Positions 6,419 through 32,000 of a stretch of 32,000 nt of DNA are shown here, piece by piece. This DNA is from Desulfosporosinus lacus DSM 15449. Its GTDB lineage: Bacteria; Bacillota; Desulfitobacteriia; Desulfitobacteriales; Desulfitobacteriaceae. How positions within the stretch are numbered: position 1 is the first letter of the stretch; each line of letters starts with the position of its first letter. The position numbers and the translations under genes are program-made. Below the pieces are notes generated by a model that saw only the letters and a program-made list of their open reading frames with translations, made no database searches and was not told the DNA's origin. The stretch is from positions 106,298 to 138,297 of the forward strand of contig NZ_FQXJ01000009.1 of assembly GCF_900129935.1 (NCBI RefSeq), written 5' to 3'.

Positions 6419-6430
6419 ATGCAACGCTCC

Positions 6431-15762: not shown

Positions 15763-15763
15763 G

Positions 15764-16969: not shown

Positions 16970-18012
16970 CTCCTCATGCAGTCAGGGCTCTGCATCTTTT
17001 CCTGAGCCACCTCGTAAGACACCAGACCCCTTTGCACTAAATCCATAATTGCCTTATCCATAGTTTGCATTCCTAACTTGGCATTCGTTTGGATAACCGT
17101 TGGAAGCTGATGAGTTTTGCCTTCCCTTATAAGGCTGCGAACCGCTGGCGTAGCCATCATAACCTCGATAGCGGCCACTCTTCCTTGCTGATCTGCTCTA
17201 GGAAACAATTGTTGAGACATAATCCCCTGTAATACTGCCGCCAGTTGCACCCGAATTTGCTGCTGTTGGTGAGGGGGAAAAACATCAATCATCCGGTCCA
17301 CCGACTGGGTGGCGTCATTTGTATGAAGGGTGCTAAAAACCAAGTGCCCAGTTTCTGCGGCTGTAACAGCGGTAGCGATAGTTTCTAAATCCCGCATTTC
17401 TCCAACCAAAATCACATCCGGATCTTGACGCAAAACAGCTCGCAGGGCATTCGTAAATGAATGGGTATCGTTACCAACCTCCCGTTGATTGACTAAACTC
17501 AGTTTATGTCTGTGCAAATATTCGATCGGATCTTCAATAGTCACGATGTGGCAAGCCCGTGTTCGATTGATATAGTCAACGAGGGATGCTAAAGTAGTTG
17601 ATTTACCACTTCCGGTTGGGCCGGTCACCAGGACTAATCCTTTATGCAGTTTAGCCAGTTCAATACTTACTGGCGGAAGTCCTAACTCTTCCGGACTGGG
17701 AATGACAAAAGGAATCAAGCGAATAACTATTCCGATAGATCCTCTCTGACGAAATATATTAACCCGATAACGTCCAACCCCTGCCAAACTATAGGATAGG
17801 TCTAATTCTCCATATTCAGCAAACCGTTTGGCTTGCTTTTCATCCATCAGAGATTGGGCAAAATTATTTAAATCAGCCTGCGAAAGTTTTTCCATCTGAT
17901 TTTGAACCAGTGAACCATTAATACGTAAAACCGGCGGGCTCTCCACTGTCAAATGAATGTCTGACGCCTTATTCTCTCCAGCCAAAAGCAAAAGCTCTTT
18001 TAATGAAAACAT
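16966..18012 (-). CDS. pilT: Twitching-motility retraction ATPase PilT
   Basis: 348 aa: ASDIHL, Walker A GPTGSGKST, TIEDPIE, RQDPDVILVGEMRD, GHLVFSTLHTN. Typical PilT size with no N-terminal GspE_N domain. Confidence 0.93.
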   Translation of the reverse strand: MFSLKELLLLAGENKASDIHLTVESPPVLRINGSLVQNQMEKLSQADLNNFAQSLMDEKQAKRFAEYGELDLSYSLAGVGRYRVNIFRQRGSIGIVIRLIPFVIPSPEELGLPPVSIELAKLHKGLVLVTGPTGSGKSTTLASLVDYINRTRACHIVTIEDPIEYLHRHKLSLVNQREVGNDTHSFTNALRAVLRQDPDVILVGEMRDLETIATAVTAAETGHLVFSTLHTNDATQSVDRMIDVFPPHQQQQIRVQLAAVLQGIMSQQLFPRADQQGRVAAIEVMMATPAVRSLIREGKTHQLPTVIQTNAKLGMQTMDKAIMDLVQRGLVSYEVAQEKMQSPDCMRR

Positions 18013-18027
18013 TTCTTCCGTCTCCTC

Positions 18028-19725: not shown

Positions 19726-19729
19726 GCCC

Positions 19730-20113
19730 TCACCAATGCAATTCCTGATAACCCTTAATGACCCAAGTTCCATTAACTAACTCTAACCGCTCCTCAATTC
19801 TTCGAACAGCTAATCCGGAAAGTCCTTTAGACGTCACTTTATACTCCCCTCCACTAAACTCAATTAGGATATCGACCTGCCCAGTATCAAATGACAAACT
19901 CCCTTGCCGCAGTTCCGGATTAACCAGCAAATGGGCTTTAGCCCACTCAATCCCTCCCTCAGCAATGTAGAGGGCTTGTCTGCTTTGAGTTTCACGTTTT
20001 ACCATGCGGTTCTCTGCATTGGCCTTTAGATAGACCTCCATCCCCAGTCCCGAAAACAAGGTTAAAAGCAAGAGAAGGAGAAGGCTCAAATAACCCGATT
20101 GATTTTGCACCAT
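19730..20113 (-). CDS. PilX-like / minor pilus component with an N-terminal hydrophobic anchor
   Basis: From Met71 of the tracked ORF: MVQNQSGYLSLLLLLLLTLFSGLG... The longer tracked N-terminus overlaps the previous gene and looks non-coding. Confidence 0.5.
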   Translation of the reverse strand: MVQNQSGYLSLLLLLLLTLFSGLGMEVYLKANAENRMVKRETQSRQALYIAEGGIEWAKAHLLVNPELRQGSLSFDTGQVDILIEFSGGEYKVTSKGLSGLAVRRIEERLELVNGTWVIKGYQELHW

Positions 20114-20136
20114 TGTTTTGGGAACCCTTCTATTAA

Positions 20137-20664
20137 TCAAAGTACGGAGGGCATTTGTGGTGCAAGTGAATATACCCGTGGTCTGATAAGCGTTTGCCAA
20201 GTGACAATTTGCCCATCCACGTTTGCCTGTAAGAAGATTTCCCACAATCCCGGCTCCACCTCCGCACATTTCCATCCAATCATACAGCTCGCCACCGGTT
20301 GGGGCACTTCTGCATGTCTCCAATAAAGATCTTTCTGTCCATCATGATCTAAATCATCGATAAAATAGGAATCAAGCCTTGGCAGAGGGTTAGAATCATC
20401 TGCTAAGGGTAACACCTTCAATACACCGGGATCTGTCCAGCTTGCAGTTTCGGACATGCGAATTGCATCAGAGACCGTCTTTCCAGCCGTCATGACGGCA
20501 TAATGTGCTTCCAAGTGATTCTTGAGAGCACGTGCTCCACGCCATTGATCCGTAAACAGCCGCATCGCCATCAGCAAGAAAATGCCGGAAATCAATAAAG
20601 CAACCAACACTTCTAAAAGGGTTAAGCCTCGTTCTGAATGATCCGTCCTCCTATTCAACCGCAT
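20137..20664 (-). CDS. Minor pilin (PilW-like) with a prepilin signal
   Basis: MRLNRRTDHSERG/LTLLEVLVALLISGIFLLMAM. GGAGAG SD. 14-nt overlap with the upstream gene. Confidence 0.7.
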   Translation of the reverse strand: MRLNRRTDHSERGLTLLEVLVALLISGIFLLMAMRLFTDQWRGARALKNHLEAHYAVMTAGKTVSDAIRMSETASWTDPGVLKVLPLADDSNPLPRLDSYFIDDLDHDGQKDLYWRHAEVPQPVASCMIGWKCAEVEPGLWEIFLQANVDGQIVTWQTLIRPRVYSLAPQMPSVL

Positions 20665-21073
20665 AAAGGCTCTCCAACTTATATTGATAAGGGTTTCCCC
20701 GTTCCGTCCAAATGACTTCTACACTTACTTTTAATAGTTGGGGGGTGTCATGCCATTCTGAACATATTATCCAACGGAATTTCCCATCTGTTCCTTCTAT
20801 CGCTCCACCTGGGATACAATTTCGGTCAGCGATATTATCTCTCCACTTATGAGCTGCCAAATGATCCATTGTTGCTTGAGCCAGATTAGCACCCTCCATA
20901 AGAGTTGTGGCCCGGCGAGATTCTGAAAGCGCCTCAACTGTCAATTCGAAAAGAACACCAAATCCTAAAGAGAAAAGAAACAGGGCAAATAATACATCAA
21001 ATAAAACATATCCCTTCGCAGTGTCGAAGTTATTGCTTTTTGGGATGCTCCCTTCCCCCCTCCATGGTTTCAC
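20651..21073 (-). CDS. Minor pilin-like protein (PilV/GspI-like) with an atypical Asp at +5
   Basis: ...DTAKG/YVLFDVLFALFLFSLGFGVLF. GTG start with weak SD. Confidence 0.6.
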   Translation of the reverse strand: MKPWRGEGSIPKSNNFDTAKGYVLFDVLFALFLFSLGFGVLFELTVEALSESRRATTLMEGANLAQATMDHLAAHKWRDNIADRNCIPGGAIEGTDGKFRWIICSEWHDTPQLLKVSVEVIWTERGNPYQYKLESLYAVE

Positions 21074-21138
21074 TCACGTTATATCCATTTCCCAATAAAA
21101 AACCATGTCATCTCTTTAAGTGAACGAAGGTTAGACCA

Positions 21139-21492
21139 TTAATTAGCCGAGGAGTTGTTGACTCGCCCCGACGAATCAAGCTGGTAACTCTGCTCAGAGT
21201 TAAAAGGATTGCTTGGAATTTCATTAAGGTAGGGACCTTGCCAATCACTCATGCCCTTCTGAGAATATACCAAATCAGTTACACTGTGCGGATAAGTACC
21301 GACATCAATCTTGTAAAGCTGGGCGGCTCCTTCGATTCTTTGGATGTTGGCCCGATTCATTTGCAAGCGAACATGTTTGGAGGCTGAACCGTAATAAGGG
21401 GTAAATGAGGTTAGTAGAACTCCCATAAGGAAAAGGACAACCAGAACTTCCCATAAGGTGAAACCTGATAGTCGTGACTTGTTATTTCTCAT
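21139..21492 (-). CDS. GspG-like pseudopilin / pilin
   Basis: MRNNKSRLSG/FTLWEVLVVLFLMGVLL...QLYKIDVGTYPHSVTDL...WQGPYL..IPSNPF is the T2SS-G type signature. The tracked start 21549 is a TTG extension. Confidence 0.8.
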   Translation of the reverse strand: MRNNKSRLSGFTLWEVLVVLFLMGVLLTSFTPYYGSASKHVRLQMNRANIQRIEGAAQLYKIDVGTYPHSVTDLVYSQKGMSDWQGPYLNEIPSNPFNSEQSYQLDSSGRVNNSSAN

Positions 21493-21694
21493 CAAGGAAA
21501 TTCTTCTCGGATAATTCACGCTTCTCAATTCTAAACTCACAACTTTCAACTCAATACAAGATTCCTAACACACAATTCTTCTTCTTTCTCTGTCCATTAA
21601 GAAATCCCTTCCTGACTCGACATATCTTTCTCGAAAATACTTTTAGTTACCATTTTCCCCTATTAATTCCATAGCATTACATCGATATGTACTT

Positions 21695-21829: not shown

Positions 21830-23266
21830 TTAGGCCTTATAACTAAATGCATCCTTAAACCCATACTCATTCCATTTTTCTTTGACCACTTCCAGCACTG
21901 GTTCTGATAAAGTGATATTGGTGGGTTTTTCTTTCCATTCATAGGGAATAGTGCAATCCATGATAATCCTGGAGGTAATGTCCCTGGCTCCGATGGGCAA
22001 AGAGGGATCCAAGGGGGTTGAACGAGCCCTTGAGATAATTTGGCAGCCACGCAAAGGATTCATTCTAGTCGTCATTGCCCAAAGGACACGACCCATATCA
22101 TCAGCTGGAATATCCTCATCGACTACGACAATTACTTTAAATCCGTAGGATCCTGTCGTCGTAGCAATAACCGCATTGCCAACGTGATCTGAATGACCGG
22201 GATACATACATTTTACCGAGACGACGGCCATATATCTTCCGGATGACTCTGGCGGTACATAGACTGATTGGATACCGGGAACTTTCATTTGTTCTAAGTC
22301 AGACCACAATGTCGCAGTGCGGTTCATCGCCTGAATCATGTGGGTATCTGTCACAGGTCTTCCTACCGTTGTAGAATGGAAGATCATATCATTACGATAA
22401 GTGACGGCTTTGACATTAATATAGTGTCTGGGAGTAGTCCCTACGCCCGAATAGTAGCCCGTATATTCTCCGAAGGGTCCTTCTGCTCGTAATTCTTCCG
22501 GCCATAACTCACCCTCAAGAACCATTTCTGCATTCGCTGGGATGGGTAAATCGACATATTCTCCTTTTACCACTTCTACAGCAGAACCACGCAGAGCTCC
22601 AATGTAATTATACTCATCTTCTCCCGCACTAATTGTCGTACTGGAAGCCAGGAACATTAAGGGATCATACCCTATAACGACAGCTACTTGCATAGGTTTA
22701 TTGAGTCCGATATATTTCTTCCGGTGTAAGTCGCCATGTTTTCCTTTGATGAACATGACTCCAACGGTATTTTTATCAAGCATTTGCATCCGGTAAGTAC
22801 CCAGGTTGATCCATCCTGTCTCAGGGTCTTTAGTGATACAAGTGGCAAAGGTCCCAATATATCTGCCGCCGTCCCTTTCATAAAATTTAGGAACCGGGAA
22901 TTTAAATAAATCAACGTCGTCCCCTATATCGATATTTTCCTTAACTGCTCCGGTTGCAACATACACCGGGGGAATCAGGGTCTTGCATCTGTCTACCCAT
23001 GCTCTGGCCATTTGAGTTTGGGTCGTCTCTATAGGCATATTCATAGCAATTGCTAAACGTTTAGTGCTGGATAAGGCACCGACAAATACTTTGCCGCCTT
23101 TATAGTCTTTAACATTTTCAAAAAGTAAGGCCGGACCTGTTTTCTCTTCATTAACTTTGGCAATATGGGATAGTTCGAGATTCCAATCGACCTCATTTTT
23201 AATCCGCAACAGTTCCCCGTTTTTTTCTAGTTCACTGATAAAATCCCGCAAGTTCTCATTTGGCAT
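21830..23266 (-). CDS. UbiD-family prFMN-dependent (de)carboxylase
   Basis: 478 aa: MPNENLRDFISELEKNGELLRIKNEVDWNLE, GEDEYNYIGALRG, AEGPFGEYTGYYSG. These are UbiD metal/prFMN and catalytic Glu motifs. GGGGGA SD. Confidence 0.95.
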   Translation of the reverse strand: MPNENLRDFISELEKNGELLRIKNEVDWNLELSHIAKVNEEKTGPALLFENVKDYKGGKVFVGALSSTKRLAIAMNMPIETTQTQMARAWVDRCKTLIPPVYVATGAVKENIDIGDDVDLFKFPVPKFYERDGGRYIGTFATCITKDPETGWINLGTYRMQMLDKNTVGVMFIKGKHGDLHRKKYIGLNKPMQVAVVIGYDPLMFLASSTTISAGEDEYNYIGALRGSAVEVVKGEYVDLPIPANAEMVLEGELWPEELRAEGPFGEYTGYYSGVGTTPRHYINVKAVTYRNDMIFHSTTVGRPVTDTHMIQAMNRTATLWSDLEQMKVPGIQSVYVPPESSGRYMAVVSVKCMYPGHSDHVGNAVIATTTGSYGFKVIVVVDEDIPADDMGRVLWAMTTRMNPLRGCQIISRARSTPLDPSLPIGARDITSRIIMDCTIPYEWKEKPTNITLSEPVLEVVKEKWNEYGFKDAFSYKA

Positions 23267-23401: not shown

Positions 23402-25054
23402 CTAACTTATCTTTTCTTCTTCCATCTTTGCTGTAATAATTTCCCGCAACCTGCTTTTGTTGACTTTAGAATCGGAAGCAAGTGGGAAAGTATCCACGAT
23501 CTCTAAGTGCTCAGGAAGTTTGTATTTAGCAAGTTTCTTTTCATTGAGGAAATTGACCATTTCCTCAAAAGTCAATACCCCCTCCTTATTATTAGGGATA
23601 ACAAAGGCGCAAGCCTTTTCACCCATAATCTTATCGGGCATAGCAACGATCGCTACATTAGATACCTTTGAATGGGCCATCAAAATGTTTTCTATTTCGC
23701 CGGGATAAATATTTTGCCCCCCGCGGATAATGATATCTTTCTTTCGGCCAACGATCATAATAAATCCGTCGTCGTCTATTTTAGCTAAATCTCCGGGAGA
23801 GGCCCAACCCTCGCTGTCATAAGCCTCGGCAAAGGTTTTTACCGGGTCACGGTAGTAACCGCCCGAATTCTGGGCACCACGGAAATACAATTGTCCAACT
23901 TCACCCTGTGGTAATACATTGCCATCATCATCGACGATTCTTATTTGATTGCCCGGCAAGGGTTTCCCGACGGTGGTGCGGCGCTTTTCAGCAGAATCAT
24001 TGATATTAATCCCCGTAACAGAACCCGTATCTTGAGAACCATAGGTACTTATTATTGGGCCATTGAATCGCTGTTCTACTTCTTCCGCAAGTGTAGGGGA
24101 AAGATAACCTCCCGCGCTGCGTATAGCCCGAATTGAGCTTAAGTCATATTTCTCTAATGATTCTTGCATAATCATGGCCAACTGAGCAGGTACTACGCAG
24201 GGAATTGTTACTTTTTCCTTCTCAAAAAACTCCAGGGCATTTTGGGCACTGTAGTCATAGAGCAATACTATCTTGGCAGCTGCTTGGGGAGCACAGAAGT
24301 AAGTTGGAGTACCACCGGCAGCGCCAGCCGCCGGGGCAACGGCACAGAGCACATCCTTAGGGCTCAGTTTCCAGTTCCTTACATGAGTTTTAGAACTCCA
24401 AAGGCGTGCAGCTATGGAATATTCAACAACTTTAGGCACCCCGGTCGTTCCGGTAGTAGTGCTTAAGAAGCCCACATGGGTCGGATCAAATCGTCTCTTA
24501 GTCAGGTAGTCCACAGGATATTTTTCTTCTAAAGGATCATTTACAATATCTTCAAAGGAAATTACCCCTTTAGGAACATCCTCACCGATTACGATGATAT
24601 TTTTAAGTAGTGGCAGTTGTTCCTTTAGTTCTTGATACATTTCATAATAGTCAAAGTTTCTATACGAGCGGGAGATAATGACAGTCGTTGCTTCAATCAA
24701 GGAAATTATTTCTTGACATTCTTTGTGACGCAAGGTGTGCATTAAGGTCATTGAAACAATTCCCGCTTTTTCACAAGCAACCCTGGCGATAAACCCTTCT
24801 ACACAATTGGGCAAATGAACCACTACCCTGGCATCTTGAGGAATACCTAATTCGATAAAAGCTAAAGCAAGCCGATCGCTTTGCTTTTTTGCTTGAAGCC
24901 AGGTTAAACGAGTTCCTTTGGAATCAACCAAAGCCTCTTTATTGGGAAACTCCTTAGCGTTTCTATCCCAGAAATCCGAAAAAACTTCATTCGTCCAATA
25001 CCCTTTGGCAGTAAATTCCTCTACTTCTGCTTTGCTGTACCTAACAGGAATCAT
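23402..25054 (-). CDS. Aryl-acid adenylating enzyme / aryl-CoA ligase (ANL superfamily, DhbE/EntE-like clade)
   Basis: 550 aa. The N-terminus YSKAEVEEFTAKGYWTNEVFSDFWDRNAKEFPNKEALVD resembles 2,3-dihydroxybenzoate-AMP ligases. A3 motif STTTGTTGVPK, and a C-terminal Lys in SKVNKSRL. The start overlaps the upstream stop (ATGA). Confidence 0.88.
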   Translation of the reverse strand: MIPVRYSKAEVEEFTAKGYWTNEVFSDFWDRNAKEFPNKEALVDSKGTRLTWLQAKKQSDRLALAFIELGIPQDARVVVHLPNCVEGFIARVACEKAGIVSMTLMHTLRHKECQEIISLIEATTVIISRSYRNFDYYEMYQELKEQLPLLKNIIVIGEDVPKGVISFEDIVNDPLEEKYPVDYLTKRRFDPTHVGFLSTTTGTTGVPKVVEYSIAARLWSSKTHVRNWKLSPKDVLCAVAPAAGAAGGTPTYFCAPQAAAKIVLLYDYSAQNALEFFEKEKVTIPCVVPAQLAMIMQESLEKYDLSSIRAIRSAGGYLSPTLAEEVEQRFNGPIISTYGSQDTGSVTGININDSAEKRRTTVGKPLPGNQIRIVDDDGNVLPQGEVGQLYFRGAQNSGGYYRDPVKTFAEAYDSEGWASPGDLAKIDDDGFIMIVGRKKDIIIRGGQNIYPGEIENILMAHSKVSNVAIVAMPDKIMGEKACAFVIPNNKEGVLTFEEMVNFLNEKKLAKYKLPEHLEIVDTFPLASDSKVNKSRLREIITAKMEEEKIS

Positions 25055-26319
25055 TGATTAATTCCTCCTTCATAAATAGGTTCTGCTTCAAAAACAGGTT
25101 TTACCAAGTCCTTAAACGCCTTAATAACGGCCTCCCCAAACTCCGGTTCATCAATATTAGCGTCAACCTCAATCACTTCGATATGCTCAGCAGCCAGCTC
25201 TTTGAAAACTTTTACAAAAATCAAATCACTTTCCGGTTCAAAGATAGCAGTACCTGCTTTATCGAAAGAGGCCCAGCCTTTCAACGGAATCAAGAACTTT
25301 ACGGGACCGCAGGCTGCATTTAGTTTTTCGGCCATTGCCCGCGCTACTACTCTTAATTCATCCGAGTTAAGACGCAAGAAAGTGCGCAAGGCATCGAGAT
25401 CATACTTTTTTCGTTCGTAATAATCAGGCTTATATTTACTCCGTGGAGGAGTCATTAAATTTACAGCACAGGGCGCGATAATCTGGGGAATACCGATTTT
25501 GCCGGCAGCTTCAAGTCGTTTTTTCCCTGCCGATCTGGTTCCGCCAAAAATTTCCTCCCCTACTCCGCCAGGTGCCAAATCAATAACAGCTTTGAACATG
25601 CCCTCTCCACTCATCATCTCCTCCATAGCCTTATCGGCTACCCCGGTTGCAGAAAAGCCGATAATCTGATACCCTTCCACCTCCAAACGGTTGCGTACAA
25701 AATTGGCAGTTTCTTCACATAAGCTCAGTTGGGTCATAGCTATATAATCCTTAGGTCTTTCCTCTTTTCCCGGTACTTTCTTCTCCGATTTTTGGGTCAT
25801 ACCCACAATTGCGCCTGCCGCCTGATCTAAGATATCTCTTATTAAGTCGTTTAAGCCTGTAAAATCAATAACCGAGTGAAAGATAGTAATATCAGAGGTT
25901 CCAAAGTAACGGCTTGCTAACCCCTGTGAAGCGGCAACACTGCTAACCATAGATTTAGGAACACCGAAAGGTAACGTTCTCATTATGTTCGTGACTAAGA
26001 GACTGTTCGTGGCACCGCCGATCCCAATGACGCCCTGAATCTTCCCCTCAGCATAGAGTCTTTTAAGCTTGGCAGAAGCACCGGCAGTAATGATTTCGGC
26101 AAGTCGAACGCGGTTCTCTGTGGAAAAGACTGTTTCAGCCGGATTGCCAAGGGCAAAAATTTCTTCACGTGTAACGTCTGCCGGCATCCCCGGCTGTCCT
26201 CTGGTTCCTAAATCAAAAATAATTGTTCGGCAATTTCTTGCTTCGATTTGCTTTTTTAGATAATTAGTTTCGGCGGCCTTAGTATCCAAGGTACAAAGGA
26301 TAGCGATTGTCTTGCTCAT
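25051..26319 (-). CDS. UPF0261 family protein (Tm-1-like ATP-binding domain), paralog 1
   Basis: 422 aa: MSKTIAILCTLDTKAAETNYLKKQIE...GVIGIGGATNS...FGVPKSMVSSVAS...DITIFHSV.D..GLN. AGGAGG SD. Confidence 0.85.
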   Translation of the reverse strand: MSKTIAILCTLDTKAAETNYLKKQIEARNCRTIIFDLGTRGQPGMPADVTREEIFALGNPAETVFSTENRVRLAEIITAGASAKLKRLYAEGKIQGVIGIGGATNSLLVTNIMRTLPFGVPKSMVSSVAASQGLASRYFGTSDITIFHSVIDFTGLNDLIRDILDQAAGAIVGMTQKSEKKVPGKEERPKDYIAMTQLSLCEETANFVRNRLEVEGYQIIGFSATGVADKAMEEMMSGEGMFKAVIDLAPGGVGEEIFGGTRSAGKKRLEAAGKIGIPQIIAPCAVNLMTPPRSKYKPDYYERKKYDLDALRTFLRLNSDELRVVARAMAEKLNAACGPVKFLIPLKGWASFDKAGTAIFEPESDLIFVKVFKELAAEHIEVIEVDANIDEPEFGEAVIKAFKDLVKPVFEAEPIYEGGINQ

Positions 26320-26429
26320 TAAATCCTCCTTTGAACAGTTTTTGTAATATTCTAAATCTTATGTTATCAGACAAATAATTCTATAACTATTCTCATATTG
26401 GGTAAAAATCTTGCGAATATCTTAGCTAC

Positions 26430-26455
26430 TTTAGTCGTACGTGCTCACCCCTTGG
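26430..26455. promoter_or_regulatory. Candidate operator site A (TTTAGTCGTACGTGCTCACCCCTTGG)
   Basis: It shares TTTAG-N3-TAC-N5-CACCCCTTGG, including an exact 10-mer, with site B at 29047-29072. It lies 110-135 bp upstream of the UPF0261-ligase-ubiD operon. Confidence 0.45.
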
Positions 26456-26499
26456 TACCTTTCATCCTGCGGTCGCCTCTTAATAATTAGCGTCTATTC

Positions 26500-26523
26500 T
26501 TAGGGGTACTGCTCTGTACCCCT
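26500..26523. promoter_or_regulatory. Candidate operator site C / hairpin (TTAGGGGTAC-TGCTCT-GTACCCCT)
   Basis: Perfect 8-bp inverted repeat of the same half-site as sites A and B. It lies 30 bp after the regulator stop, so it could equally be that gene's terminator. Confidence 0.4.
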
Positions 26524-26553
26524 GTTTGTATTGTTCAAAATTCAGCGCTGCAC

Positions 26554-28902
26554 TCAATTGATAAGTTTTAGGGCTAACTGTATCTGCAACCCCACATCGG
26601 GATCATCCATATCAATTCCCGCTATCTCCTCTATCCTCTTCAAACGGTATTTCATGGTGCTGTGATTGAGAAAACCTTCTCTTGCGGCCTTTAAGATATT
26701 GCCATTATTTCGATAATAAAGTTCCAACATGCTTACTAACTGAGCATTATGTTTCCGGTCGTAATCAATTAAGGGGCGGAGTACCCGGTTTGCAAATCTT
26801 GCGAACCTTTCCTTATTGATTTCCAACAGCGCAAACACCCCCAGACGCTCATAGGACATCATCCGGTTTTCCTGGTTCAGGCTTTTCATGATCTCCAAAG
26901 TACTGGTGGCTTGCCAGTATGATTCCTTAAATTCGTCAAAACGATGGCAGTTCCCACCTAGGGCCAACCACCAGACAGTCTCACCAGGTTGTTCGCTTAA
27001 TTCTTTCTCAATTGCTTTGGCCAAGGGATTGTTCTTCTCACACACATTTAAAGCGGCTAACACAAGGATATAGCGGTTGCTGATGACAATACTCCCGGGG
27101 GATTCCCGCTGGACTGCCTCTTTCACCAATTCATAAATGCGCCGTTTGGCAGACGACCCTGGGTATGAAGCTTCTCTGCTTTCCACATCGATAATAAACA
27201 CTTGATAGGTATCTGCAAATACAAACCCCAACTGGGCTGAGCGGTGATAGGCTGCCTCTTCAGATTCGTAGTTGCCTGCTATCAAATCTTCAATGAAATC
27301 TTCTCTTTGGCGCATTTCCACTGCCAAGGCTGCTTTTTGCTTCAGTAATTCAAGAGCAAAGACCCTTCCCGCCTGCTCCATGGCAATATAGTCCAACTCA
27401 AACAGCCTTTTTTCCTTTTCCAGCGCTGACACATACCCAAAAACTTCCTTACCGGCAACAATGGGCACGATTATCTGCCGCCTTCCCCCAGAGTCTGTCT
27501 CAAGAGTAACCAGACGCTTATCATTCACGAGGGCCTGCATTTCCTGTCGATACCGCGGGACTTTCATCAGATGCCCAATTGAGAGAAATCCATTTTCCAG
27601 CTCGGTATTCCCTCCGGATGCTGAAATCAGTCTGAAATTTTCATCCTCCACCCACACATGGCAGTTGATTAACTCTGCCAGTGTCCGGGCGATCGCCTCC
27701 AGTCCCTGACACTCCAGGACCAATTGGGTTAACTGGGTGTGAATATCGCTGGACTTCTTGAGCTTAGCGTGCTGAGCAGTAAGGACATTGTTAAGTTGGT
27801 TAAGCTGAAGCACTTTTTCCTGTAGTTCTTCGTCTGTTCTTTCATATACACGGGCATTTTGGATCGCTATCGCCGCTTGTGCTCCAAGAATTTGCAACAG
27901 TTCCTGATCTTCATGGTTGAAAACCCGGTTGCCCGGTTTTTTAACCACTACCATGGCACCAATCATAGACCCTTTGAAATAAAGAGGTACTCCGAGGGAA
28001 TCTTCCTGTACCACAATGGCCCGTCCTGTCTTGAGCACAGGAGTAAGAAGCTCGCCGGGATCATTTGTAATCTCCGACCACACTTCCGCTTCCTCGGTCC
28101 TGTACACGAGAAATTGGCCATCTTCCATAACAAGGGCCATGCAAGAGGCCTGTGCAAAGAACATTTTCGCGGCGTACTGGATAAACCTCCTTGGCAGTTT
28201 ATCCGAATCGTAATTAGTGGTGATTTCTACTGCAGCCTCGTTTAAGCCTCTCCACTGCACAACTCGCTCCCTTTCCTCGGTCACCATTTTTTGCAGGCTT
28301 TTAAGCACTGAACTAGGCCGCAAGTCTTCAATATACCTTGCCGCCTCTCTGCCCCAGGCTTCCAGCGGACGTAATTCCCATTTACAGTGTTGGTCTCCTT
28401 TGGCACCGCACATGGTCTCCACAGATACAATTTCCCGTCCCATAAACCCACTGGCATAACCGCTGGCATATCCGGATACCGTCCAACAGACTGCTTCCGT
28501 GGCTTGACCATAAAGTTTAAGATGTTGCTCTACTTCATTCGAATTATGCCATTCCCCTCGCATGAGGAAAGTCCCCTCAGCGCGGTTAAATTCTAAATGA
28601 TCACATTTGACATGGGCCGAACCCTCGATGGTATGGATCATTGGCCCTGCCAACATCCACTCGGCATCAGTCTCAAAATTGAACATATTCTTTACGCTCA
28701 TGACATCAGCATAACCACAACGGTACCCAAAGCGGGTAAGAACCCCCCGGGCATTGTCCTCCCCCAGTGACTCAATCAATTCCTGTCGCAGTTGTCCAAG
28801 GGCGTCTGCATTGAACAACAGCATTCGGTTGCCCCGAAAGGTCATTGTTCCCCTCTCTCTGTCGAGGGTGAGAAAATTCTCAAAATCAAACACTGGTTTC
28901 AT
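26554..28902 (-). CDS. Hybrid transcriptional regulator: XylR_N + V4R aromatic-sensor module, GAF domain, PucR-type C-terminal HTH
   Basis: N-terminus: MTFRGNRMLLFNADALGQLRQELIESLGEDNARGVLTRFGYRCGYADV (XylR_N-like). EAVCWTVSGYASGYASGFMGREIVSVETMCGAKGDQHCKWELRP is V4R-like. Middle: GAF-like. C-terminus: FLNHSTMKYRLKRIEEIAGIDMDDPDVGLQIQLALKL (PucR HTH). There is no AAA+/sigma54 module. ATG 28902 follows GGGGGG; the tracked TTG 29001 extension has no SD. Confidence 0.85.
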   Translation of the reverse strand: MKPVFDFENFLTLDRERGTMTFRGNRMLLFNADALGQLRQELIESLGEDNARGVLTRFGYRCGYADVMSVKNMFNFETDAEWMLAGPMIHTIEGSAHVKCDHLEFNRAEGTFLMRGEWHNSNEVEQHLKLYGQATEAVCWTVSGYASGYASGFMGREIVSVETMCGAKGDQHCKWELRPLEAWGREAARYIEDLRPSSVLKSLQKMVTEERERVVQWRGLNEAAVEITTNYDSDKLPRRFIQYAAKMFFAQASCMALVMEDGQFLVYRTEEAEVWSEITNDPGELLTPVLKTGRAIVVQEDSLGVPLYFKGSMIGAMVVVKKPGNRVFNHEDQELLQILGAQAAIAIQNARVYERTDEELQEKVLQLNQLNNVLTAQHAKLKKSSDIHTQLTQLVLECQGLEAIARTLAELINCHVWVEDENFRLISASGGNTELENGFLSIGHLMKVPRYRQEMQALVNDKRLVTLETDSGGRRQIIVPIVAGKEVFGYVSALEKEKRLFELDYIAMEQAGRVFALELLKQKAALAVEMRQREDFIEDLIAGNYESEEAAYHRSAQLGFVFADTYQVFIIDVESREASYPGSSAKRRIYELVKEAVQRESPGSIVISNRYILVLAALNVCEKNNPLAKAIEKELSEQPGETVWWLALGGNCHRFDEFKESYWQATSTLEIMKSLNQENRMMSYERLGVFALLEINKERFARFANRVLRPLIDYDRKHNAQLVSMLELYYRNNGNILKAAREGFLNHSTMKYRLKRIEEIAGIDMDDPDVGLQIQLALKLIN

Positions 28903-29036
28903 TTGCGGCCCCCCAATATTAATTACTTTTTTTAACTCATCCATTCGTATAAACCAACGCAAATGAGAGTGGAGTGGGACTCTGGACTCAGTTCCCCTCA
29001 AGCGGGTTTGTACAAATTAATGAATTTGTTTTAAAA

Positions 29037-29130
29037 TTTTCCCCAATTTAGGGATACTAAGGCACCCCTTGGGAAATTGACAAAATTGTCAAAGAGTTTT
29101 TCCTCACTTTAGGAATAGTAAGGCAAAACC
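29037..29130. promoter_or_regulatory. Divergent control region: two ~28-bp direct repeats (29037-29064 and 29098-25) carrying operator-like sites B and D, flanking the inverted repeat TTGACAA-AA-TTGTCAA (29077-29092)
   Basis: TTTTCCCCAATTTAGGGATACTAAGGCA versus TTTTCCTCACTTTAGGAATAGTAAGGCA: 24 of 28 identical, 61 bp apart. Site B continues into CACCCCTTGG. Confidence 0.5.
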
Positions 29131-29268
29131 AATCATGCTAACATTTAATTATAGTCTGAAAGTTCAGAATATACAGGCTTGTTAAGTTAAAATGTACCAC
29201 TCTTCAGGTCAAAAGCCACTTTTTATAGAGGGCAAAGATTAAAAAACTTGAGAAAAGGAGTAATTATC

Positions 29269-30513
29269 ATGAAAAATATTTTGATCGTAGCTTGTCTGGA
29301 CACCAAGAGTACAGAGGTTCTTTTTTTAAAAGAAAGAATTGAAACCTTCGGAGCCAAAACAATTATCATCGATGCCGGAATCTTGGGAGAGCCCCTTTTT
29401 CCGCCGGATTTTACACGAGCGGATGTAGCGGAAATGGCTGGTACGACCCTGGAAAAGGTCAGAAAAATCCCCTCCGAAGGCCAGGCCATGGATATTCAAA
29501 TCAAAGGCGCTATTGGCATAGCACAGAAACTGCACAGTGAAGGTAAGGTACATGGAATCCTGGGTATAGGAGGGGCCATGGGTACCGGCCTGGGAACAGC
29601 GGTAATGAGCTCTTTTCCTATCGGAATTCCGAAAGTTATGATTTCTACTGTGGCTGGGGTCGGTAATTTAGTAGGAGTCTTCGTCGGAACTAAGGACATT
29701 AACATGTTTCACTCGGTGGCGGATGTAGCCGGACTGAACCGGTTGACCCGAACTATTTTCTCCAATGCAGCGGGAGCGGTTGTGGGCATGGCAAATGCCG
29801 GTGTTGATAAACTTGAAAATAGAAGGCTGGTTGCCGTTTCAACCCTTGGCACTACGGAACATGCTGCCGAAAGAACAAGGGCACTGCTTGAGCTGGCCGG
29901 TTATGAATCCGTGACTTTCCACACAACAGGTGTTGGCGGTCGAAGCCTGGAGCACTCGATAATAGATGGATTGGTTGACGGAGGGGTAATAGAGTATTCT
30001 CTACATGAATATATCGATCGGATAGCAGGGGGGCTATACCAGGCTTCTGATGATCGATACGAAAACGCCGGCCTTATGTCTCTACCTCAGGTATATGTTC
30101 CCGGTTCTACTGATTTTATTGTTGAGGGGCATGGTAAGGAGAAGTACCAGGGTCGTAAAACTCATATGCATAATCAGGCCATCATGTTGTACCGAACCAG
30201 CCCGGTTGAAATGAAACAGTTGGGAGAGGAAATCGGTCAGAAGCTGAGTAGGAGCAAATCTCCGGTTACGGTTGTAATTCCAATGCGAGGCTTTAGTGTC
30301 CACGACCGAGAAGGCGGTCCACTCTGGGAACCCGAGGCACTTTTGGAGTTTGCTAAGGGCATTGAGAGTAAGGCCAATACCATGCTCAAAGTCAAGAGAG
30401 TGGATGCTCATGTTCTCGAAGAAAGATTCATTCAGGAAGCTTTGGACTCATTCCTGGAAAACGCTAAAATTGTTGACACTATGGCTGCGATTGACGTTAG
30501 ATCAGCCGGATAG
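29269..30513 (+). CDS. UPF0261 family protein (Tm-1-like ATP-binding domain), paralog 2
   Basis: MKNILIVACLDTKSTEVLFLKERIE...GILGIGGAMGT...IGIPKVMISTVAG...DINMFHSVADVAGLN is collinear with paralog 1. ATG 29269 follows AAAGGAG; the tracked 29248 is a TTG extension. Confidence 0.85.
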   Translation: MKNILIVACLDTKSTEVLFLKERIETFGAKTIIIDAGILGEPLFPPDFTRADVAEMAGTTLEKVRKIPSEGQAMDIQIKGAIGIAQKLHSEGKVHGILGIGGAMGTGLGTAVMSSFPIGIPKVMISTVAGVGNLVGVFVGTKDINMFHSVADVAGLNRLTRTIFSNAAGAVVGMANAGVDKLENRRLVAVSTLGTTEHAAERTRALLELAGYESVTFHTTGVGGRSLEHSIIDGLVDGGVIEYSLHEYIDRIAGGLYQASDDRYENAGLMSLPQVYVPGSTDFIVEGHGKEKYQGRKTHMHNQAIMLYRTSPVEMKQLGEEIGQKLSRSKSPVTVVIPMRGFSVHDREGGPLWEPEALLEFAKGIESKANTMLKVKRVDAHVLEERFIQEALDSFLENAKIVDTMAAIDVRSAG

Positions 30514-30537: not shown

Positions 30538-30559
30538 AAGAGGAGGGTTTCCTCCTCTT
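30538..30559 (+). terminator. Intrinsic terminator of UPF0261 paralog 2
   Basis: AAGAGGAGG-GTTT-CCTCCTCTT followed by TTCCTGCTTT, 25 nt after the stop. Confidence 0.8.
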
Positions 30560-30774: not shown

Positions 30775-30832
30775 TATATGGCAAGAGCCGCCTTTACGTT
30801 CAATTGAAACGCAGGGCGGCTCTTGCCATATA
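30775..30832 (-). terminator. Long hairpin after ubiX (18-bp perfect stem TATATGGCAAGAGCCGCC / GGCGGCTCTTGCCATATA, 22-nt loop containing TTCAATTGAA)
   Basis: Read directly. It lies 32 nt past the ubiX stop with no clear U-tract. Confidence 0.5.
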
Positions 30833-30863: not shown

Positions 30864-31448
30864 TTACATTGTCCGCAGTTTCTGCCGAGTTCCTCCGCCC
30901 TCCCAGCGTTTAAACAATTGGTGACTGACGTCAAATTGGTCCAGGGCCTTGCCCACAGTCTGATTGATGATATCATCGATTGTCTTAGGCATGTGGTAAT
31001 AGGCGGGCATAGGCGGGAGAATGACTGCACCCATTTCCGCCACAGCCGTCAGTAACTTAAGATGTCCAATATGAAGAGGGGTCTCACGAGGGATAACTAC
31101 CAGTTTCCTTCTTTCCTTCAGCACTACATCAGCCGCTCGTACCAAAAGCGAGTCGTTATAGGAATTGGCTAAAGCTGAAAGGCTCTTAATGGCACAGGGT
31201 GCTATGAGCATTCCGTCCGTTTTAAACGAACCACTGGAGATGGAAGCTCCTATGTCCCTGTTATCGTAGACATAGTCCGCTAAGTTCTCCACTTCCTTCA
31301 CACTAAAATTTGTCTCCGTTTCAATAGTTCTTTTGGCGCTATCCGTCAAAACAAGATGGGATTCTATTTGGCAAGCCCCTAAAGTCTGCAACATTCGAAT
31401 GCCGTAGATGGCGCCGGTGGCACCGGATATACCCACAATCAACTTCAT
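30864..31448 (-). CDS. ubiX: Flavin prenyltransferase UbiX (prFMN synthase)
   Basis: 194 aa: MKLIVGISGATGAIYGIRML...LVLTDSAK...PCAIKSLSALANSYNDSLL.RAADV.LKERRKLV. The GGAGGGA SD lies inside the end of ribK. Confidence 0.95.
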   Translation of the reverse strand: MKLIVGISGATGAIYGIRMLQTLGACQIESHLVLTDSAKRTIETETNFSVKEVENLADYVYDNRDIGASISSGSFKTDGMLIAPCAIKSLSALANSYNDSLLVRAADVVLKERRKLVVIPRETPLHIGHLKLLTAVAEMGAVILPPMPAYYHMPKTIDDIINQTVGKALDQFDVSHQLFKRWEGGGTRQKLRTM

Positions 31449-31450
31449 TC

Positions 31451-31855
31451 TTATCCCTCCACTTCACTTTTCTTGAATGTTAAAGTAACTACATCCCCGT
31501 CTACAATGTTTAAGGTGTCTTTAATGCATACCGGCGCCACTATTTCGATTCTTCCAATCGGGTGTTTGGTTTTTCCTGGCATCACAACCGCACCTACAAG
31601 TTGATCATTGATCAAGGTCTCGTAACAGATGGCCGAGCAAGACGTTTTATTTCTCGGCTCGATGAACACCCCGCCAGTCTGACCAAAGCTCACTAAACTA
31701 TCCCAATCAAGTTCAATCATATCTACATTTAAAGTGCCGGGGTAGGGTACAAACCCCAGCTTATTTAAGAATTGCTCAACCACCCAATCAAGCTGGGTAA
31801 AATATTTACCTTCCTTAAAACCACTTGAAACTGTACCCTGCAACTTTATTTCCAT
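31451..31855 (-). CDS. ribK: CTP-dependent riboflavin kinase, archaeal type (DUF120/RibK family)
   Basis: 134 aa: GTVSSGFKEGKYFTQL.W...F...LGF.PYPGTLNV...GAVVMPGKTKHPIGRIEIVAPV.IKD.LNIVDGDVVTL. It is collinear with my recollection of the Methanocaldococcus MJ0056-type enzyme. Confidence 0.8.
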   Translation of the reverse strand: MEIKLQGTVSSGFKEGKYFTQLDWVVEQFLNKLGFVPYPGTLNVDMIELDWDSLVSFGQTGGVFIEPRNKTSCSAICYETLINDQLVGAVVMPGKTKHPIGRIEIVAPVCIKDTLNIVDGDVVTLTFKKSEVEG

Positions 31856-31891: not shown

Positions 31892-32000
31892 TCATTCCTC
31901 AATTACCTCGACAACCCCATTAGTGCCATCAATTCGAATGCGTTGACCTGTCCTAATGTGTTCAGTAACCCTAACCCCCCGAGTAATGGTACCTACCACC
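31892..32000 (-). CDS. 3' end of a PEP-utilising-enzyme family protein (mobile His-swivel domain C-terminus); the rest lies beyond the right edge
   Basis: My translation is VVGTITRGVRVTEHIRTGQRIRIDGTNGVVEVIEE*. This matches the ...VVG....AT..I..G..V.VDG..G.V ending of PF00391-type domains. Only 36 aa are visible. Confidence 0.55.
   Translation of the reverse strand, partial: VVGTITRGVRVTEHIRTGQRIRIDGTNGVVEVIEE

What the first reader, a model, noticed from the sequence alone, without database searches (positions are those of the whole stretch)
25051..30513. Two divergent UPF0261 (Tm-1-like ATP-binding) paralogs bracket the regulator; one is translationally coupled to the aryl-acid ligase
Seen: the 422-aa and 414-aa proteins are collinear homologs, sharing LDTK near the N-terminus, GIGG, (G)IPK..xS.VA and FHSV.D..GLN. 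Paralog 1's TGA overlaps the ligase ATG (ATGA at 25051-25054), which usually indicates stoichiometric co-production. Paralog 2 is monocistronic, with its own terminator, and is divergent from the regulator. Established: UPF0261 is the N-terminal ATP-binding half of tomato Tm-1. In bacteria it is commonly paired with a PEP-hydrolase-like TIM-barrel protein, and its function is unknown. No such TIM-barrel partner is present in this window. Inference: the family may act here as an ATP-dependent accessory, for example a kinase or activase of the substrate or a partner of the ligase or UbiD enzyme.
Basis: partly seen in the sequence, partly recalled or inferred. Interest (0 to 1): 0.72.

Follow-up and report, generated by a model that had tools for sequence, protein, structure and literature searches.

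The report
Two kinase-like genes in phenol cluster
Two distantly related UPF0261 (MarK/Tm-1-type) ATP-binding genes sit in an anaerobic phenol-degradation cluster: one looks like a true phenol kinase, and the other belongs to an unstudied, histidine-less branch almost always encoded beside an aryl-acid ligase in strict anaerobes, where the carboxylation step is still unexplained.

Summary
Two full-length UPF0261 proteins (422 and 414 aa) are 33% identical (E 7e-71). They bracket a XylR_N/V4R/GAF/PucR regulator, and paralog 1's TGA overlaps the ligase ATG (ATGA, 25051-25054).

MarK (PDB 9MPY, JBC 2025) is a UPF0261 ATP-dependent phenolic kinase that forms ADP.

Paralog 2 keeps MarK's ATP motif and all five acceptor-pocket residues checked. 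In 8 of 9 other contexts examined, its relatives lie beside or within about 6 kb of phenylphosphate-carboxylase/UbiD-UbiX genes, and in two they head ppcB-ppcA-ubiX operons with no phenylphosphate synthase nearby. It is probably the phenol(ic) kinase feeding the UbiD carboxylase.

Paralog 1 keeps the ATP motif but has Ser/Leu/Ser/Leu/Phe in place of the acceptor pocket. Its clade lies next to a DhbE-like ligase in 71 of 80 genome loci, and the ligase lies next to it in 66 of 80 metagenome loci. A single PpcB-like UbiD and UbiX usually accompany the pair, and PpcC/PpcD almost never do. In Desulfatiglans anilini, UPF0261-family proteins at the syntenic position are induced by phenol or by aniline/4-aminobenzoate but were never discussed.

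Paralog 1's reaction is unknown. I read it as an ATP-binding partner of the ligase/carboxylase module. Overall this is a new variant of a known kind, of moderately high interest.

The parts
21830..23266 (-). UbiD-family (de)carboxylase, PpcB-like
   Evidence: Pfam UbiD_N/UbiD/UbiD_C. TIGR02724 phenylphosphate carboxylase beta scores 510.7 bits against a cut-off of 468.95.
23402..25054 (-). DhbE/EntE-like aryl-acid adenylating (AMP-forming) ligase
   Evidence: Pfam AMP-binding and AMP-binding_C. The closest solved relatives are 2,3-dihydroxybenzoate-AMP and salicylate-AMP ligases, E 2e-72. No NCBIfam equivalog cut-off is reached.
25051..25054 (-). ATGA stop/start overlap between paralog 1 and the ligase
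   Evidence: Read directly from the sequence. The same 4-nt overlap occurs in the locus holding the Paradesulfitobacterium aromaticivorans-named ortholog (L004).
25051..26319 (-). UPF0261 paralog 1, histidine-less 'S-type', ligase-coupled
   Evidence: PF06792 and PF23189. D-T-K is kept, but MarK G195/T196/H219/H304/H348 are S/L/S/L/F. AF2 model has pLDDT 77.9, and its best PDB hits are 9MPY and Tm-1. The ligase is adjacent in 71 of 80 loci.
26501..26524 (-). Hairpin between the regulator stop and the paralog-1 promoter region (terminator-like)
   Evidence: 9-bp stem with 5 GC pairs, reported on the + strand by the scan and lying just downstream of the regulator stop on the - strand. Weak evidence.
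26554..29001 (-). Regulator with XylR_N + V4R + GAF + GGDEF_2 + PucR HTH domains
   Evidence: Pfam. Gene callers use a later start, giving 782 aa. Regulator homologs lie near the module in 12 of 80 loci.
29047..29125 (+). Two 18-nt direct repeats TTTAGGRATASTAAGGCA, 61 bp apart, in the regulator/paralog-2 intergenic region (candidate operator)
   Evidence: 2 matches against 0.09 expected; 0 of 100 shuffles reach 2.
29269..30513 (+). UPF0261 paralog 2, MarK-like 'H-type' phenolic kinase candidate
   Evidence: PF06792 and PF23189. E 4.6e-69 to MarK 9MPY, with D14, T15, K16, G195, T196, H219, H304 and H348 all conserved. Relatives lie beside ppc/UbiD-UbiX genes.
30540..30554 (+). Terminator-like hairpin plus T-run after paralog 2
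   Evidence: Scan counts are not above the shuffled expectation.
30864..31448 (-). UbiX flavin prenyltransferase
   Evidence: PF02441. NF004685 scores 268.6 bits against a cut-off of 188.
31451..31855 (-). CTP-dependent (archaeal-type) riboflavin kinase
   Evidence: PF01982, E 4e-28.
31892..32000 (-). 3' end of a PpsA-like (phenylphosphate-synthase alpha-like, PEP-utilizers) gene cut by the window edge
   Evidence: tblastn match at 31895-31963. The full 588-aa gene is on contig L001 and keeps the catalytic His motif GGMLAHAAICARE.

Best explanation
The region is the core of an anaerobic phenol-type catabolic cluster, in the order PpsA-like, riboflavin kinase, UbiX | paralog 2 | regulator | paralog 1, ligase, PpcB-like UbiD. 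Its two UPF0261 genes have different jobs.

Paralog 2 (29269-30513) is a MarK-like ATP-dependent phenolic kinase. It most likely makes the aryl phosphate (phenylphosphate or a close analogue) that the prFMN-dependent UbiD carboxylase uses, spending ATP to ADP rather than the ATP to AMP + Pi of phenylphosphate synthase.

Paralog 1 (25051-26319) belongs to a separate, widespread, histidine-less clade. This clade is inherited as a unit with a DhbE-like aryl-acid ligase, a single PpcB-like UbiD and UbiX in strict anaerobes. I infer that it is an ATP/ADP-binding subunit or partner of this carboxylation/activation module. It would act on an anionic intermediate (aryl phosphate, aryl acid or its adenylate) or on the ligase itself.

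Shown here: homology, residue patterns, conserved gene linkage, and (from published proteomes) substrate-specific induction of UPF0261-family proteins at the syntenic position. Inferred: both reactions, the substrate identity, and any physical complex.
For: Family function. MarK (Saro_1862, PDB 9MPY) phosphorylates acetovanillone and other phenolics with ATP and gives ADP. D14/T15/K16 mark the ATP site, and G195/T196/H219/H304/H348 form the phenol pocket (PMC12624787).

Paralog 2. It matches 9MPY at E 4.6e-69 with all eight of those residues conserved. Most of its 119 closest relatives keep G-[TSA]-H-H-x. Relatives head PpcB/KdsC-like/PpcA/Phenyl_P_gamma/UbiX operons with no PpsAB within 10 kb (L172, L173). 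Others precede a PpcB-like UbiD and UbiX (L171, L174) or lie 0.5-6 kb from ppc clusters (L090, L175, L176). The source contig has PpsA but no PpsB.

Paralog 1. D-T-K and the other N-domain residues are kept, but the pocket is S/L/S/L/F. The model's best structural matches are 9MPY and Tm-1. The ligase lies within 700 bp on the same strand in 71 of 80 genome loci across Bacillota, Desulfobacterota, Chloroflexota and Syntrophia; 7 of the other 9 are contig ends. In the reverse test, 66 of 80 ligase loci carry an adjacent UPF0261, with about 3-6 exceptions that have room for one. Within 10 kb, UbiD and UbiX are each present in 59 of 80 loci. PpcD (gamma) is absent from all 160 loci and PpcC-like is present in 1. 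Distance-matrix correlation is 0.92 for UPF0261-UbiD, 0.90 for UbiX and 0.86 for the ligase, against 0.68 for PpsA; the positive control PpsA-PpsB gives 0.88.

Experimental support from D. anilini proteomes. UPF0261 protein 02057 has areas of 0 / 5.0e7 / 5.3e7 / 2.5e9 on 4-aminobenzoate / aniline / benzoate / phenol. UPF0261 protein 03869 has 5.4e9 / 6.5e8 / 0 / 0. Each tracks its neighbouring ligase, 02058 or 03870 (PMC7500099 supplement). The authors state that the function of ligase 02058 is unknown and that phenylphosphate carboxylase activity could not be measured (PMC6114531).
Against: No biochemical data exist for either protein or for any close relative.

Paralog 2. MarK prefers para-carbonyl phenols, and paralog 2 keeps H348, the ketone-binding residue, so plain phenol may not be its substrate. 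A PpsA-like gene with an intact catalytic His sits in the same cluster. Some paralog-2 relatives are fused to, or encoded next to, PEP-utilizers/PpsA-like proteins. So it might feed PpsA rather than phosphorylate phenol directly.

Paralog 1. Some clade members have E-E-K instead of D-T-K and are paired with a His-retaining paralog (L038, L043, L044, L059), which suggests a non-catalytic role in at least some lineages. UPF-ligase-UPF triads occur without any UbiD within 10 kb. The nearest relative locus, L008, has paralog-1 type followed directly by UbiD with no ligase. Mirror-tree correlations are inflated by shared phylogeny. That D. anilini 02057 and 03869 are S-type is inferred from synteny with Desulfatiglandales loci, not from their sequences.
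Confidence: 0.6

Rival explanations
1. Paralog 2 replaces PpsB rather than the whole synthase. It would use ATP to phosphorylate the swivel-domain histidine of the PpsA-like protein, which then phosphorylates phenol.
For: The source cluster has a PpsA-like gene with an intact His motif, but no PpsB in the window or on contig L001. The closest relative locus (L008, Desulfosporosinus BRH_c37) has PpsB and HD roughly where this organism has the regulator and paralog 2. Relatives P0162 and P0168 are fusions of this clade with a PF00391 mobile domain, followed by UbiX and a PpsA-like gene.
Against: The fused mobile domain has Thr where the phosphohistidine should be: GGPLSTASIYARE against GGMLAHAAICARE. 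Paralog 2 keeps the complete MarK phenol pocket, which a protein kinase would not need. L172 and L173 have no PpsA at all. PpsB may simply lie elsewhere in the genome.
Confidence: 0.15
2. Paralog 1 is a catalytically inert scaffold or chaperone for the adenylating ligase, analogous to MbtH-like partners of adenylation domains. It may act as a heterodimer with a His-type paralog.
For: The ligase adjacency is near-obligate and genes often overlap. All acceptor-pocket histidines are lost. E-E-K variants occur with a second paralog flanking the ligase. MarK is a homodimer (PMC12624787).
Against: N-domain residues shared with the kinase clade are conserved at 90% or more in this clade: D12, K14, E17, GG101-102, K122, D143, S149. 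The clade also has its own invariant polar residues in the C-domain: R262, N287, D309, R312, K297. That pattern is expected for an enzyme or ligand-binding protein rather than an inert scaffold.
Confidence: 0.15
3. Paralog 1 is a cofactor-supply kinase for UbiX/UbiD, for example making dimethylallyl phosphate for prFMN, and is not part of the catabolic chemistry.
For: In many loci the order is ligase, UPF0261, UbiX, sometimes with an HD phosphohydrolase between them. Its correlation with UbiX is 0.90. The window cluster also carries a dedicated riboflavin kinase.
Against: The UPF-ligase-UPF triads have no UbiD or UbiX within 10 kb. In this window paralog 1 is about 4.5 kb from UbiX, in a separate operon, and overlaps the ligase. 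The complete ppcABCD-ubiX operons examined have no S-type gene.
Confidence: 0.07
4. The two paralogs are redundant isozymes of the same phenolic kinase with different substrate ranges.
For: They share the same fold and the same ATP motif and lie in the same cluster.
Against: They are only 33% identical. Five of five pocket residues checked differ. A conserved Asp/Asn pair is swapped between the clades: D282/N302 in H-type against N287/D309 in S-type. Their gene linkages are distinct.
Confidence: 0.05

Closest known systems
MarK (Saro_1862) of Novosphingobium aromaticivorans, PDB 9MPY: UPF0261 multiple aromatic kinase
   Same: Both paralogs share its two-domain fold and its D-T-K ATP motif. Paralog 2 also shares all five acceptor-pocket residues I checked (G195, T196, H219, H304, H348), at E 4.6e-69.
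   Different: MarK works in an aerobe, upstream of a biotin-type carboxylase (acvCDEF) acting on an acetyl side chain. Here the partner is a prFMN/UbiD ring carboxylase in a strict anaerobe. Paralog 1 lacks the whole phenol pocket and is tied to an adenylating ligase.
Phenylphosphate synthase PpsABC plus phenylphosphate carboxylase PpcABCD of Thauera aromatica
   Same: The pathway logic is the same: phosphorylate the phenol, carboxylate para with a UbiD-family enzyme, then make the CoA thioester. The window UbiD passes the PpcB model cut-off.
   Different: No PpcA, PpcC or PpcD is present, and no PpsB was found. The kinase candidate is unrelated to PEP-utilising enzymes and would form ADP, not AMP + Pi.
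'Strict-anaerobe type' phenol and aniline clusters of Desulfatiglans anilini (phe 02049-02059; ani 03866-03876) and Desulfoscipio gibsoniae
   Same: The core is the same: PpcB-like UbiD, DhbE-like ligase, UPF0261 and UbiX. D. gibsoniae protein P0016 is 59% identical to paralog 1. The D. anilini UPF0261 proteins are substrate-induced.
   Different: Those clusters have PpsA and PpsB and no MarK-like second paralog. In the papers I could read, the UPF0261 gene is left as an unnamed 'uncharacterized' arrow.
Tomato Tm-1 and bacterial UPF0261/TBST (PF09370) pairs
   Same: The N-terminal UPF0261 fold is shared, and Tm-1 binds ATP through the equivalent lysine (Tm-1 K20). Tm-1 matches both paralogs at about E 1e-42 to 1e-47.
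   Different: No TIM-barrel partner lies near either gene or in any of the Pfam-annotated related loci.

Membership tests
UPF0261 (PF06792 + PF23189) | Both Pfam domains score above the gathering threshold | tested here: met
   Paralog 1 scores 180.7 and 202.7 bits; paralog 2 scores 180.9 and 178.5 bits; the cut-off is 27.
UPF0261 (PF06792 + PF23189) | Two-domain fold like 9MPY and the Tm-1 N-terminal region | tested here: met
   Paralog 1 AF2 model (pLDDT 77.9) matches 9mpy_A at E 7.8e-29 and 3wrw_A at E 9.7e-27. Paralog 2 was not modelled.
MarK-type aromatic kinase | ATP-site residues D14-T15-K16 | tested here: met
   Both paralogs have L-D-T-K at the aligned position.
MarK-type aromatic kinase | Phenol pocket G195, T196, H219, H304, H348 (paralog 2) | tested here: met
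   Paralog 2 has G, T, H, H, H at these positions.
MarK-type aromatic kinase | Phenol pocket G195, T196, H219, H304, H348 (paralog 1) | tested here: not met
   Paralog 1 has S, L, S, L, F. None of its 119 listed relatives has the full G-T-H-H-H pocket, and all but two lack His at position 219.
MarK-type aromatic kinase | ATP-dependent phosphorylation of a phenolic hydroxyl, with ADP as product | not testable with these tools
   This needs an enzyme assay.
MarK-type aromatic kinase | Operon with acvCDEF/hpeCBAD-type carboxylase and phosphatase genes | tested here: not met
   No such genes are in the window or on L001. The neighbours are UbiD, UbiX and the ligase.
Tm-1-like UPF0261/TBST pair | Adjacent or fused PF09370 TIM-barrel partner | tested here: not met
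   No PF09370 hit among the window ORFs I scanned, in the flanking contig, or in the Pfam-annotated related loci.
Phenylphosphate carboxylase (Thauera type, PpcABCD) | PpcB-like UbiD subunit | tested here: met
   TIGR02724 scores 510.7 bits, above the 468.95 cut-off.
Phenylphosphate carboxylase (Thauera type, PpcABCD) | PpcA, PpcC (gamma) and PpcD (delta phosphatase) subunits present | tested here: not met
   There is only one UbiD in the window. No Phenyl_P_gamma or KdsC-like homolog was found in L001, nor in 159 of the 160 related loci. For the window itself I rely on the ORF list and Pfam scans, not a dedicated tblastn.
Phenylphosphate synthase (PpsAB) | PpsA (PEP-utilizers with catalytic His) and PpsB (PPDK_N) both present | tested here: inconclusive
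   PpsA-like is present with an intact His motif. No PpsB homolog was found in the window or on L001, but the rest of the genome was not available.

The most novel reading that the evidence does not exclude
The histidine-less UPF0261 clade, the DhbE-like ligase and the lone PpcB-like UbiD together form a previously unrecognised three-component, nucleotide-coupled aryl carboxylation/activation machine. In strict anaerobes it would replace PpcA, PpcC and PpcD. The UPF0261 subunit would handle the aryl phosphate, possibly returning its phosphoryl group to ADP to save energy, while the ligase traps the acid. This would explain why phenylphosphate carboxylase activity has not been measurable in D. 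anilini extracts. With a MarK-type kinase in front, as in this window, phenol activation would cost far less ATP than the textbook four equivalents.
Probability: 0.2. Interest if true: 0.85.

Novelty: new variant of a known kind. Interest (0 to 1): 0.66.

Why it matters
How strict anaerobes carboxylate phenol is an open problem. They have only a PpcB homolog, the carboxylase activity could not be measured in D. anilini extracts, and the textbook route costs up to four ATP equivalents, which sulfate reducers and syntrophs can hardly afford (PMC6114531).

This analysis points to two unexamined, testable players. One is a one-ATP MarK-type kinase that replaces phenylphosphate synthase in some clusters. 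The other is a conserved ATP-binding protein locked to a ligase of 'unknown function' beside the carboxylase in phenol and aniline clusters across at least four phyla.

It also extends the only known activity of the large UPF0261 family into anaerobic, UbiD-dependent metabolism. And it defines a second clade with a remodelled acceptor site.

Tried and rejected
TIM-barrel (PF09370) partner. None was found among the scanned window ORFs, on the flanking contig, or in the Pfam-annotated related loci.

orf370 as a hidden PpsB. The 370-aa gene upstream of PpsA on L001 has no Pfam or NCBIfam hit and is hydrophobic and membrane-like. It is unrelated to the no-Pfam genes next to paralog-2 relatives.

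Promoter and terminator scans. Counts equal the shuffled expectation, so I used them only as weak support.

The UPF0261 + PEP-utilizers fusion as proof of a phosphorelay. The fused domain lacks the phosphohistidine.

Literature. I found no paper linking UPF0261 or Tm-1-like proteins to anaerobic aromatic degradation or to UbiD. Schleinitz et al. 2009 on Geobacter could not be read. The ORM2 benzene paper has no UPF0261 component.

Mirror-tree analysis. It places paralog-1 type with the UbiD/UbiX/ligase module rather than with PpsA, but it cannot separate physical interaction from co-inheritance.

Not attempted. I did not model paralog 2 or any complex, because the structure tool takes single chains only. 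I could not inspect pocket geometry, because model coordinates are not exposed.

Full report
**1. What is in the sequence**

The minus strand carries a UbiD-family gene (21830-23266), an AMP-forming ligase (23402-25054) and UPF0261 paralog 1 (25051-26319). After a hairpin comes an 815-aa regulator (26554-29001) with XylR_N, V4R, GAF, GGDEF_2 and PucR-HTH domains. Divergent from the regulator on the plus strand is UPF0261 paralog 2 (29269-30513). Converging on it are UbiX (30864-31448) and a CTP-dependent riboflavin kinase (31451-31855).

- The two UPF0261 proteins each carry PF06792 and PF23189. They align end to end at 33% identity, E 7e-71.
- The stop of paralog 1 overlaps the ligase start in ATGA.
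- A hairpin with a T-run follows paralog 2. The terminator scan overall is not enriched over shuffles.
- The left 21 kb of the window holds unrelated genes: EF-P, a peptidase, an RHS toxin with Imm44 immunity, and what look by sequence like type IV pilus genes.

**2. The surrounding pathway**

The UbiD protein scores above NCBI's curated cut-off for phenylphosphate carboxylase subunit beta (510.7 against 468.95 bits). An identical copy of the region on metagenome contigs (L001-L003) extends 4.3 kb past the window edge. It shows a 588-aa PpsA-like PEP-utilizers gene, a 370-aa hydrophobic protein and a PNPOx-like gene.

- PpsA keeps its catalytic His motif.
- tblastn finds no PpsB, HD-phosphohydrolase or 4-hydroxybenzoyl-CoA reductase in the window or on L001.
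- Orthologous clusters, in the locus holding the Paradesulfitobacterium aromaticivorans-named ortholog and in Desulfoscipio gibsoniae, have the regulator, PpsA, PpsB, UbiD, UPF0261, ligase and UbiX. The first also has Hcr-like genes.

**3. The family is no longer of unknown function**

A full-text search for UPF0261 returned Hall et al. 2025 (PMC12624787). MarK (Saro_1862, PDB 9MPY) is a homodimeric UPF0261 protein that phosphorylates acetovanillone and other phenolics with ATP and yields ADP.

- D14/T15/K16 mark the ATP site; an E16K change raises the rate about 1600-fold.
- G195, T196, H219, H304 and H348, with F283 and I285, form the phenol pocket.
- D14, T15, K16, G195, H219 and H304 are more than 90% conserved among MarK homologs.

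**4. The two paralogs belong to different functional clades**

Paralog 2 matches 9MPY at E 4.6e-69 and conserves D, T, K, G195, T196, H219, H304 and H348. Paralog 1 matches at E 1.6e-45. It keeps D-T-K but has S, L, S, L, F at the five pocket positions.

- None of paralog 1's 119 closest database relatives has the full G-T-H-H-H pocket, and all but two lack His at position 219.
- Most of paralog 2's relatives keep G-[TSA]-H-H-x.
- Comparing 119 S-type with 107 H-type sequences shows a shared N-domain core: D12, K14, E17, GG101-102, P121-K122, D143, S149. Clade-specific residues lie mostly in the C-domain. S-type has S223, E255, N287, D309, W349, R262, K297 and R312. H-type has H218, D250, D282, H301, N302 and F342. 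An Asp/Asn pair is swapped between the clades.
- An AlphaFold2 model of paralog 1 (pLDDT 77.9) has 9MPY and Tm-1 as its only strong structural matches.

**5. Paralog 1: conserved linkage**

A GTDB-wide scan with an alignment of the paralog-1 clade gave 80 loci from Bacillota, Desulfobacterota, Chloroflexota, Syntrophia and others. I annotated them by BLASTP against the cluster proteins.

- A ligase 46-81% identical to the window ligase lies within 700 bp on the same strand in 71 of 80 loci. Seven of the remaining nine are contig ends.
- Thirty-four pairs overlap or are 30 bp or less apart. These gaps are approximate, because ORF starts were taken as the most upstream candidate.
- Within 10 kb: UbiD in 59 loci, UbiX in 59, PpsB in 46, PpsA in 43, Hcr-like genes in 22-28, an HD protein in 19.
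- The reciprocal scan of metagenome contigs with a ligase alignment gave 80 loci, of which 66 have an adjacent UPF0261. Most of the rest end at the ligase. Three (L116, L131, L170) have clear room for a UPF0261 gene but lack one, and three more (L102, L128, L168) are borderline.
- Homologs of the Thauera-type subunits PpcC and PpcD are absent from 159 of these 160 loci.
- In 31 loci with all components, distance matrices of the S-type protein correlate best with UbiD (0.92), UbiX (0.90) and the ligase (0.86), and less with PpsA (0.68). The known partners PpsA-PpsB give 0.88.

The S-type gene therefore travels with the carboxylation/activation module, not with the phosphorylation module.

**6. 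Paralog 1: published but unnoticed experimental evidence**

In Desulfatiglans anilini the phenol cluster reads ppcB (02059), '2,3-dihydroxybenzoate-AMP ligase' (02058), 02057, ubiX (02056). This is the order seen in Desulfatiglandales loci L041, L061, L067 and L072.

- The authors state that the function of 02058, which is induced on phenol, is unknown.
- They also report that ppcγ has no obvious homolog, that the best ppcα and ppcδ matches lie outside the cluster, and that phenylphosphate carboxylase activity could not be detected (PMC6114531).
- The later study's proteome table lists 02057 as 'Uncharacterized protein, UPF0261 family'. Its areas are 0, 5.0e7, 5.3e7 and 2.5e9 on 4-aminobenzoate, aniline, benzoate and phenol.
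- A second UPF0261 protein, 03869, lies in the aniline cluster next to acyl-CoA synthetase 03870. Its areas are 5.4e9, 6.5e8, 0 and 0 (PMC7500099 supplement).

The proteins are thus made specifically when the neighbouring ligase is. That these two are S-type is inferred from synteny only.

**7. Paralog 1: limits on interpretation**

- Twelve of the 80 loci carry a second UPF0261 that retains His219.
- In L038, L043, L044 and L059 the ligase-adjacent S-type has E-E-K in place of D-T-K. In L038, L043 and L044 it forms a UPF(H)-ligase-UPF(S) triad. The triads sit among TRAP-transporter, short-chain dehydrogenase or aldehyde-oxidoreductase genes, with no UbiD nearby. The tightest tie is therefore to the ligase, and in some lineages the S-type may not bind ATP.
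- The ligase is nearest to DhbE, EntE and salicylate-AMP ligases, which are hydroxy-aryl-acid adenylating enzymes.
- The S-type C-domain gains several invariant basic residues. I take this as a hint of an anionic ligand (inference).

**8. Paralog 2: contexts of relatives**

I inspected nine other contexts.

- Two are operons of UPF0261, PpcB (712 bits), a KdsC-like phosphatase, PpcA (725 bits), Phenyl_P_gamma and UbiX, with no PpsAB within 10 kb (L172, L173).
- Two have a XylR-type sigma-54 activator beside UPF0261, a UbiD, a second UPF0261 and UbiX. The UbiD is PpcB-like by NCBIfam in L171; it was not scored in L174.
- Three lie 0.5-6 kb from a ppc cluster (L090, L175, L176).
- One is a fusion with a PEP-utilizers mobile domain, followed by UbiX and a PpsA-like gene (L089).
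- One lies beside a phenol-type outer-membrane channel gene and a XylR-type activator (L088).

A MarK-type kinase sitting where phenylphosphate synthase normally sits is the simplest reading. It would cost one ATP equivalent rather than two, since MarK gives ADP. The fusion's mobile domain has Thr in place of the phosphohistidine. So the alternative that paralog 2 charges PpsA, replacing PpsB, remains possible but is less favoured.

**9. Comparison with known systems, and novelty**

Paralog 2 passes every sequence-level test for a MarK-type kinase, but its genomic partner is a UbiD ring carboxylase, not the biotin-type acvCDEF system. Paralog 1 fails the pocket test, so I do not file it as a MarK-type phenol kinase. 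It defines a ligase-coupled clade whose reaction is unknown. Neither gene has a TIM-barrel (PF09370) partner of the Tm-1-like kind (PMC5028733).

I found no paper connecting UPF0261 to anaerobic phenol or aniline metabolism or to UbiD enzymes.

**10. Verdict**

I rate this a new variant of a known kind, with interest about 0.66. The strongest open possibility (about 0.2) is that S-type UPF0261, the ligase and a lone PpcB-like UbiD form the missing carboxylation machinery of strict anaerobes.

Noticed in passing
window 30864-31855: An archaeal-type CTP-dependent riboflavin kinase lies directly upstream of UbiX in the same operon. Riboflavin-kinase or kinase-HAD fusion genes also sit in the UbiD/UbiX clusters of L172, L173 and L175. 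This looks like a dedicated FMN supply for prFMN synthesis.
   Followed up: partly
window 29047-29064 and 29108-29125: Two 18-nt direct repeats (TTTAGGGATACTAAGGCA and TTTAGGAATAGTAAGGCA), 61 bp apart, lie in the regulator/paralog-2 intergenic region. Only 0.09 matches are expected by chance. They may be the operator of the XylR_N/V4R/GAF/PucR regulator.
   Followed up: partly
L001 2648-4414 (just beyond window 32000) and window 31892-32000: The source cluster has a PpsA-like gene with an intact catalytic His but no PpsB within reach. The closest relative locus (L008, Desulfosporosinus sp. BRH_c37) has PpsB and an HD protein between UbiX and its paralog-1 ortholog.
   Followed up: partly
P0162 and P0168; L089 262-1821: These are 519-aa natural fusions of a paralog-2-type UPF0261 with a PEP-utilizers mobile domain. 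The phosphohistidine of that domain is replaced by Thr (GGPLSTASIYARE). UbiX and a PpsA-like gene follow.
   Followed up: partly
L038 2561-6738, L043 6988-11242, L044 4226-8421, L059: In these loci the ligase-adjacent S-type UPF0261 has E-E-K instead of D-T-K and co-occurs with a His219-retaining paralog. L038, L043 and L044 form UPF-ligase-UPF triads with no UbiD nearby. This hints at heterodimers with one degenerate ATP site.
   Followed up: partly
window 5996-11143: A 1570-aa RHS-repeat protein is followed by an Imm44 immunity protein. This is a polymorphic toxin/immunity pair unrelated to the finding.
   Followed up: no
window 12126-21549: A run of genes that look by sequence like type IV pilus or competence genes (prepilin peptidase, PilB/PilT-like ATPases, PilC-like protein, pseudopilins) lies immediately downstream of the UbiD gene. 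One neighbouring gene on L001 hits T2SSG. The aromatic cluster ends abruptly at about 21.8 kb.
   Followed up: no
window 30780-30830: A perfect 17-bp inverted repeat (ATATGGCAAGAGCCGCC...GGCGGCTCTTGCCATAT) lies between the converging UbiX and paralog-2 genes. It is probably a bidirectional terminator.
   Followed up: no
L175 10786-12463: A His-retaining UPF0261 (pocket G-V-H-H-A) sits in an operon with PpsA and PpsB and is followed by an LpdD_chaperone-family gene. This is a third recurring UPF0261 subclade in phenol-type clusters; L042 has the same pocket type.
   Followed up: no
window about 26320-26553 compared with L001: Coordinates of the otherwise ~99-100% identical metagenome contig shift by 14 bases between paralog 1 and the regulator. 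This implies a small indel in the intergenic region between assemblies.
   Followed up: no
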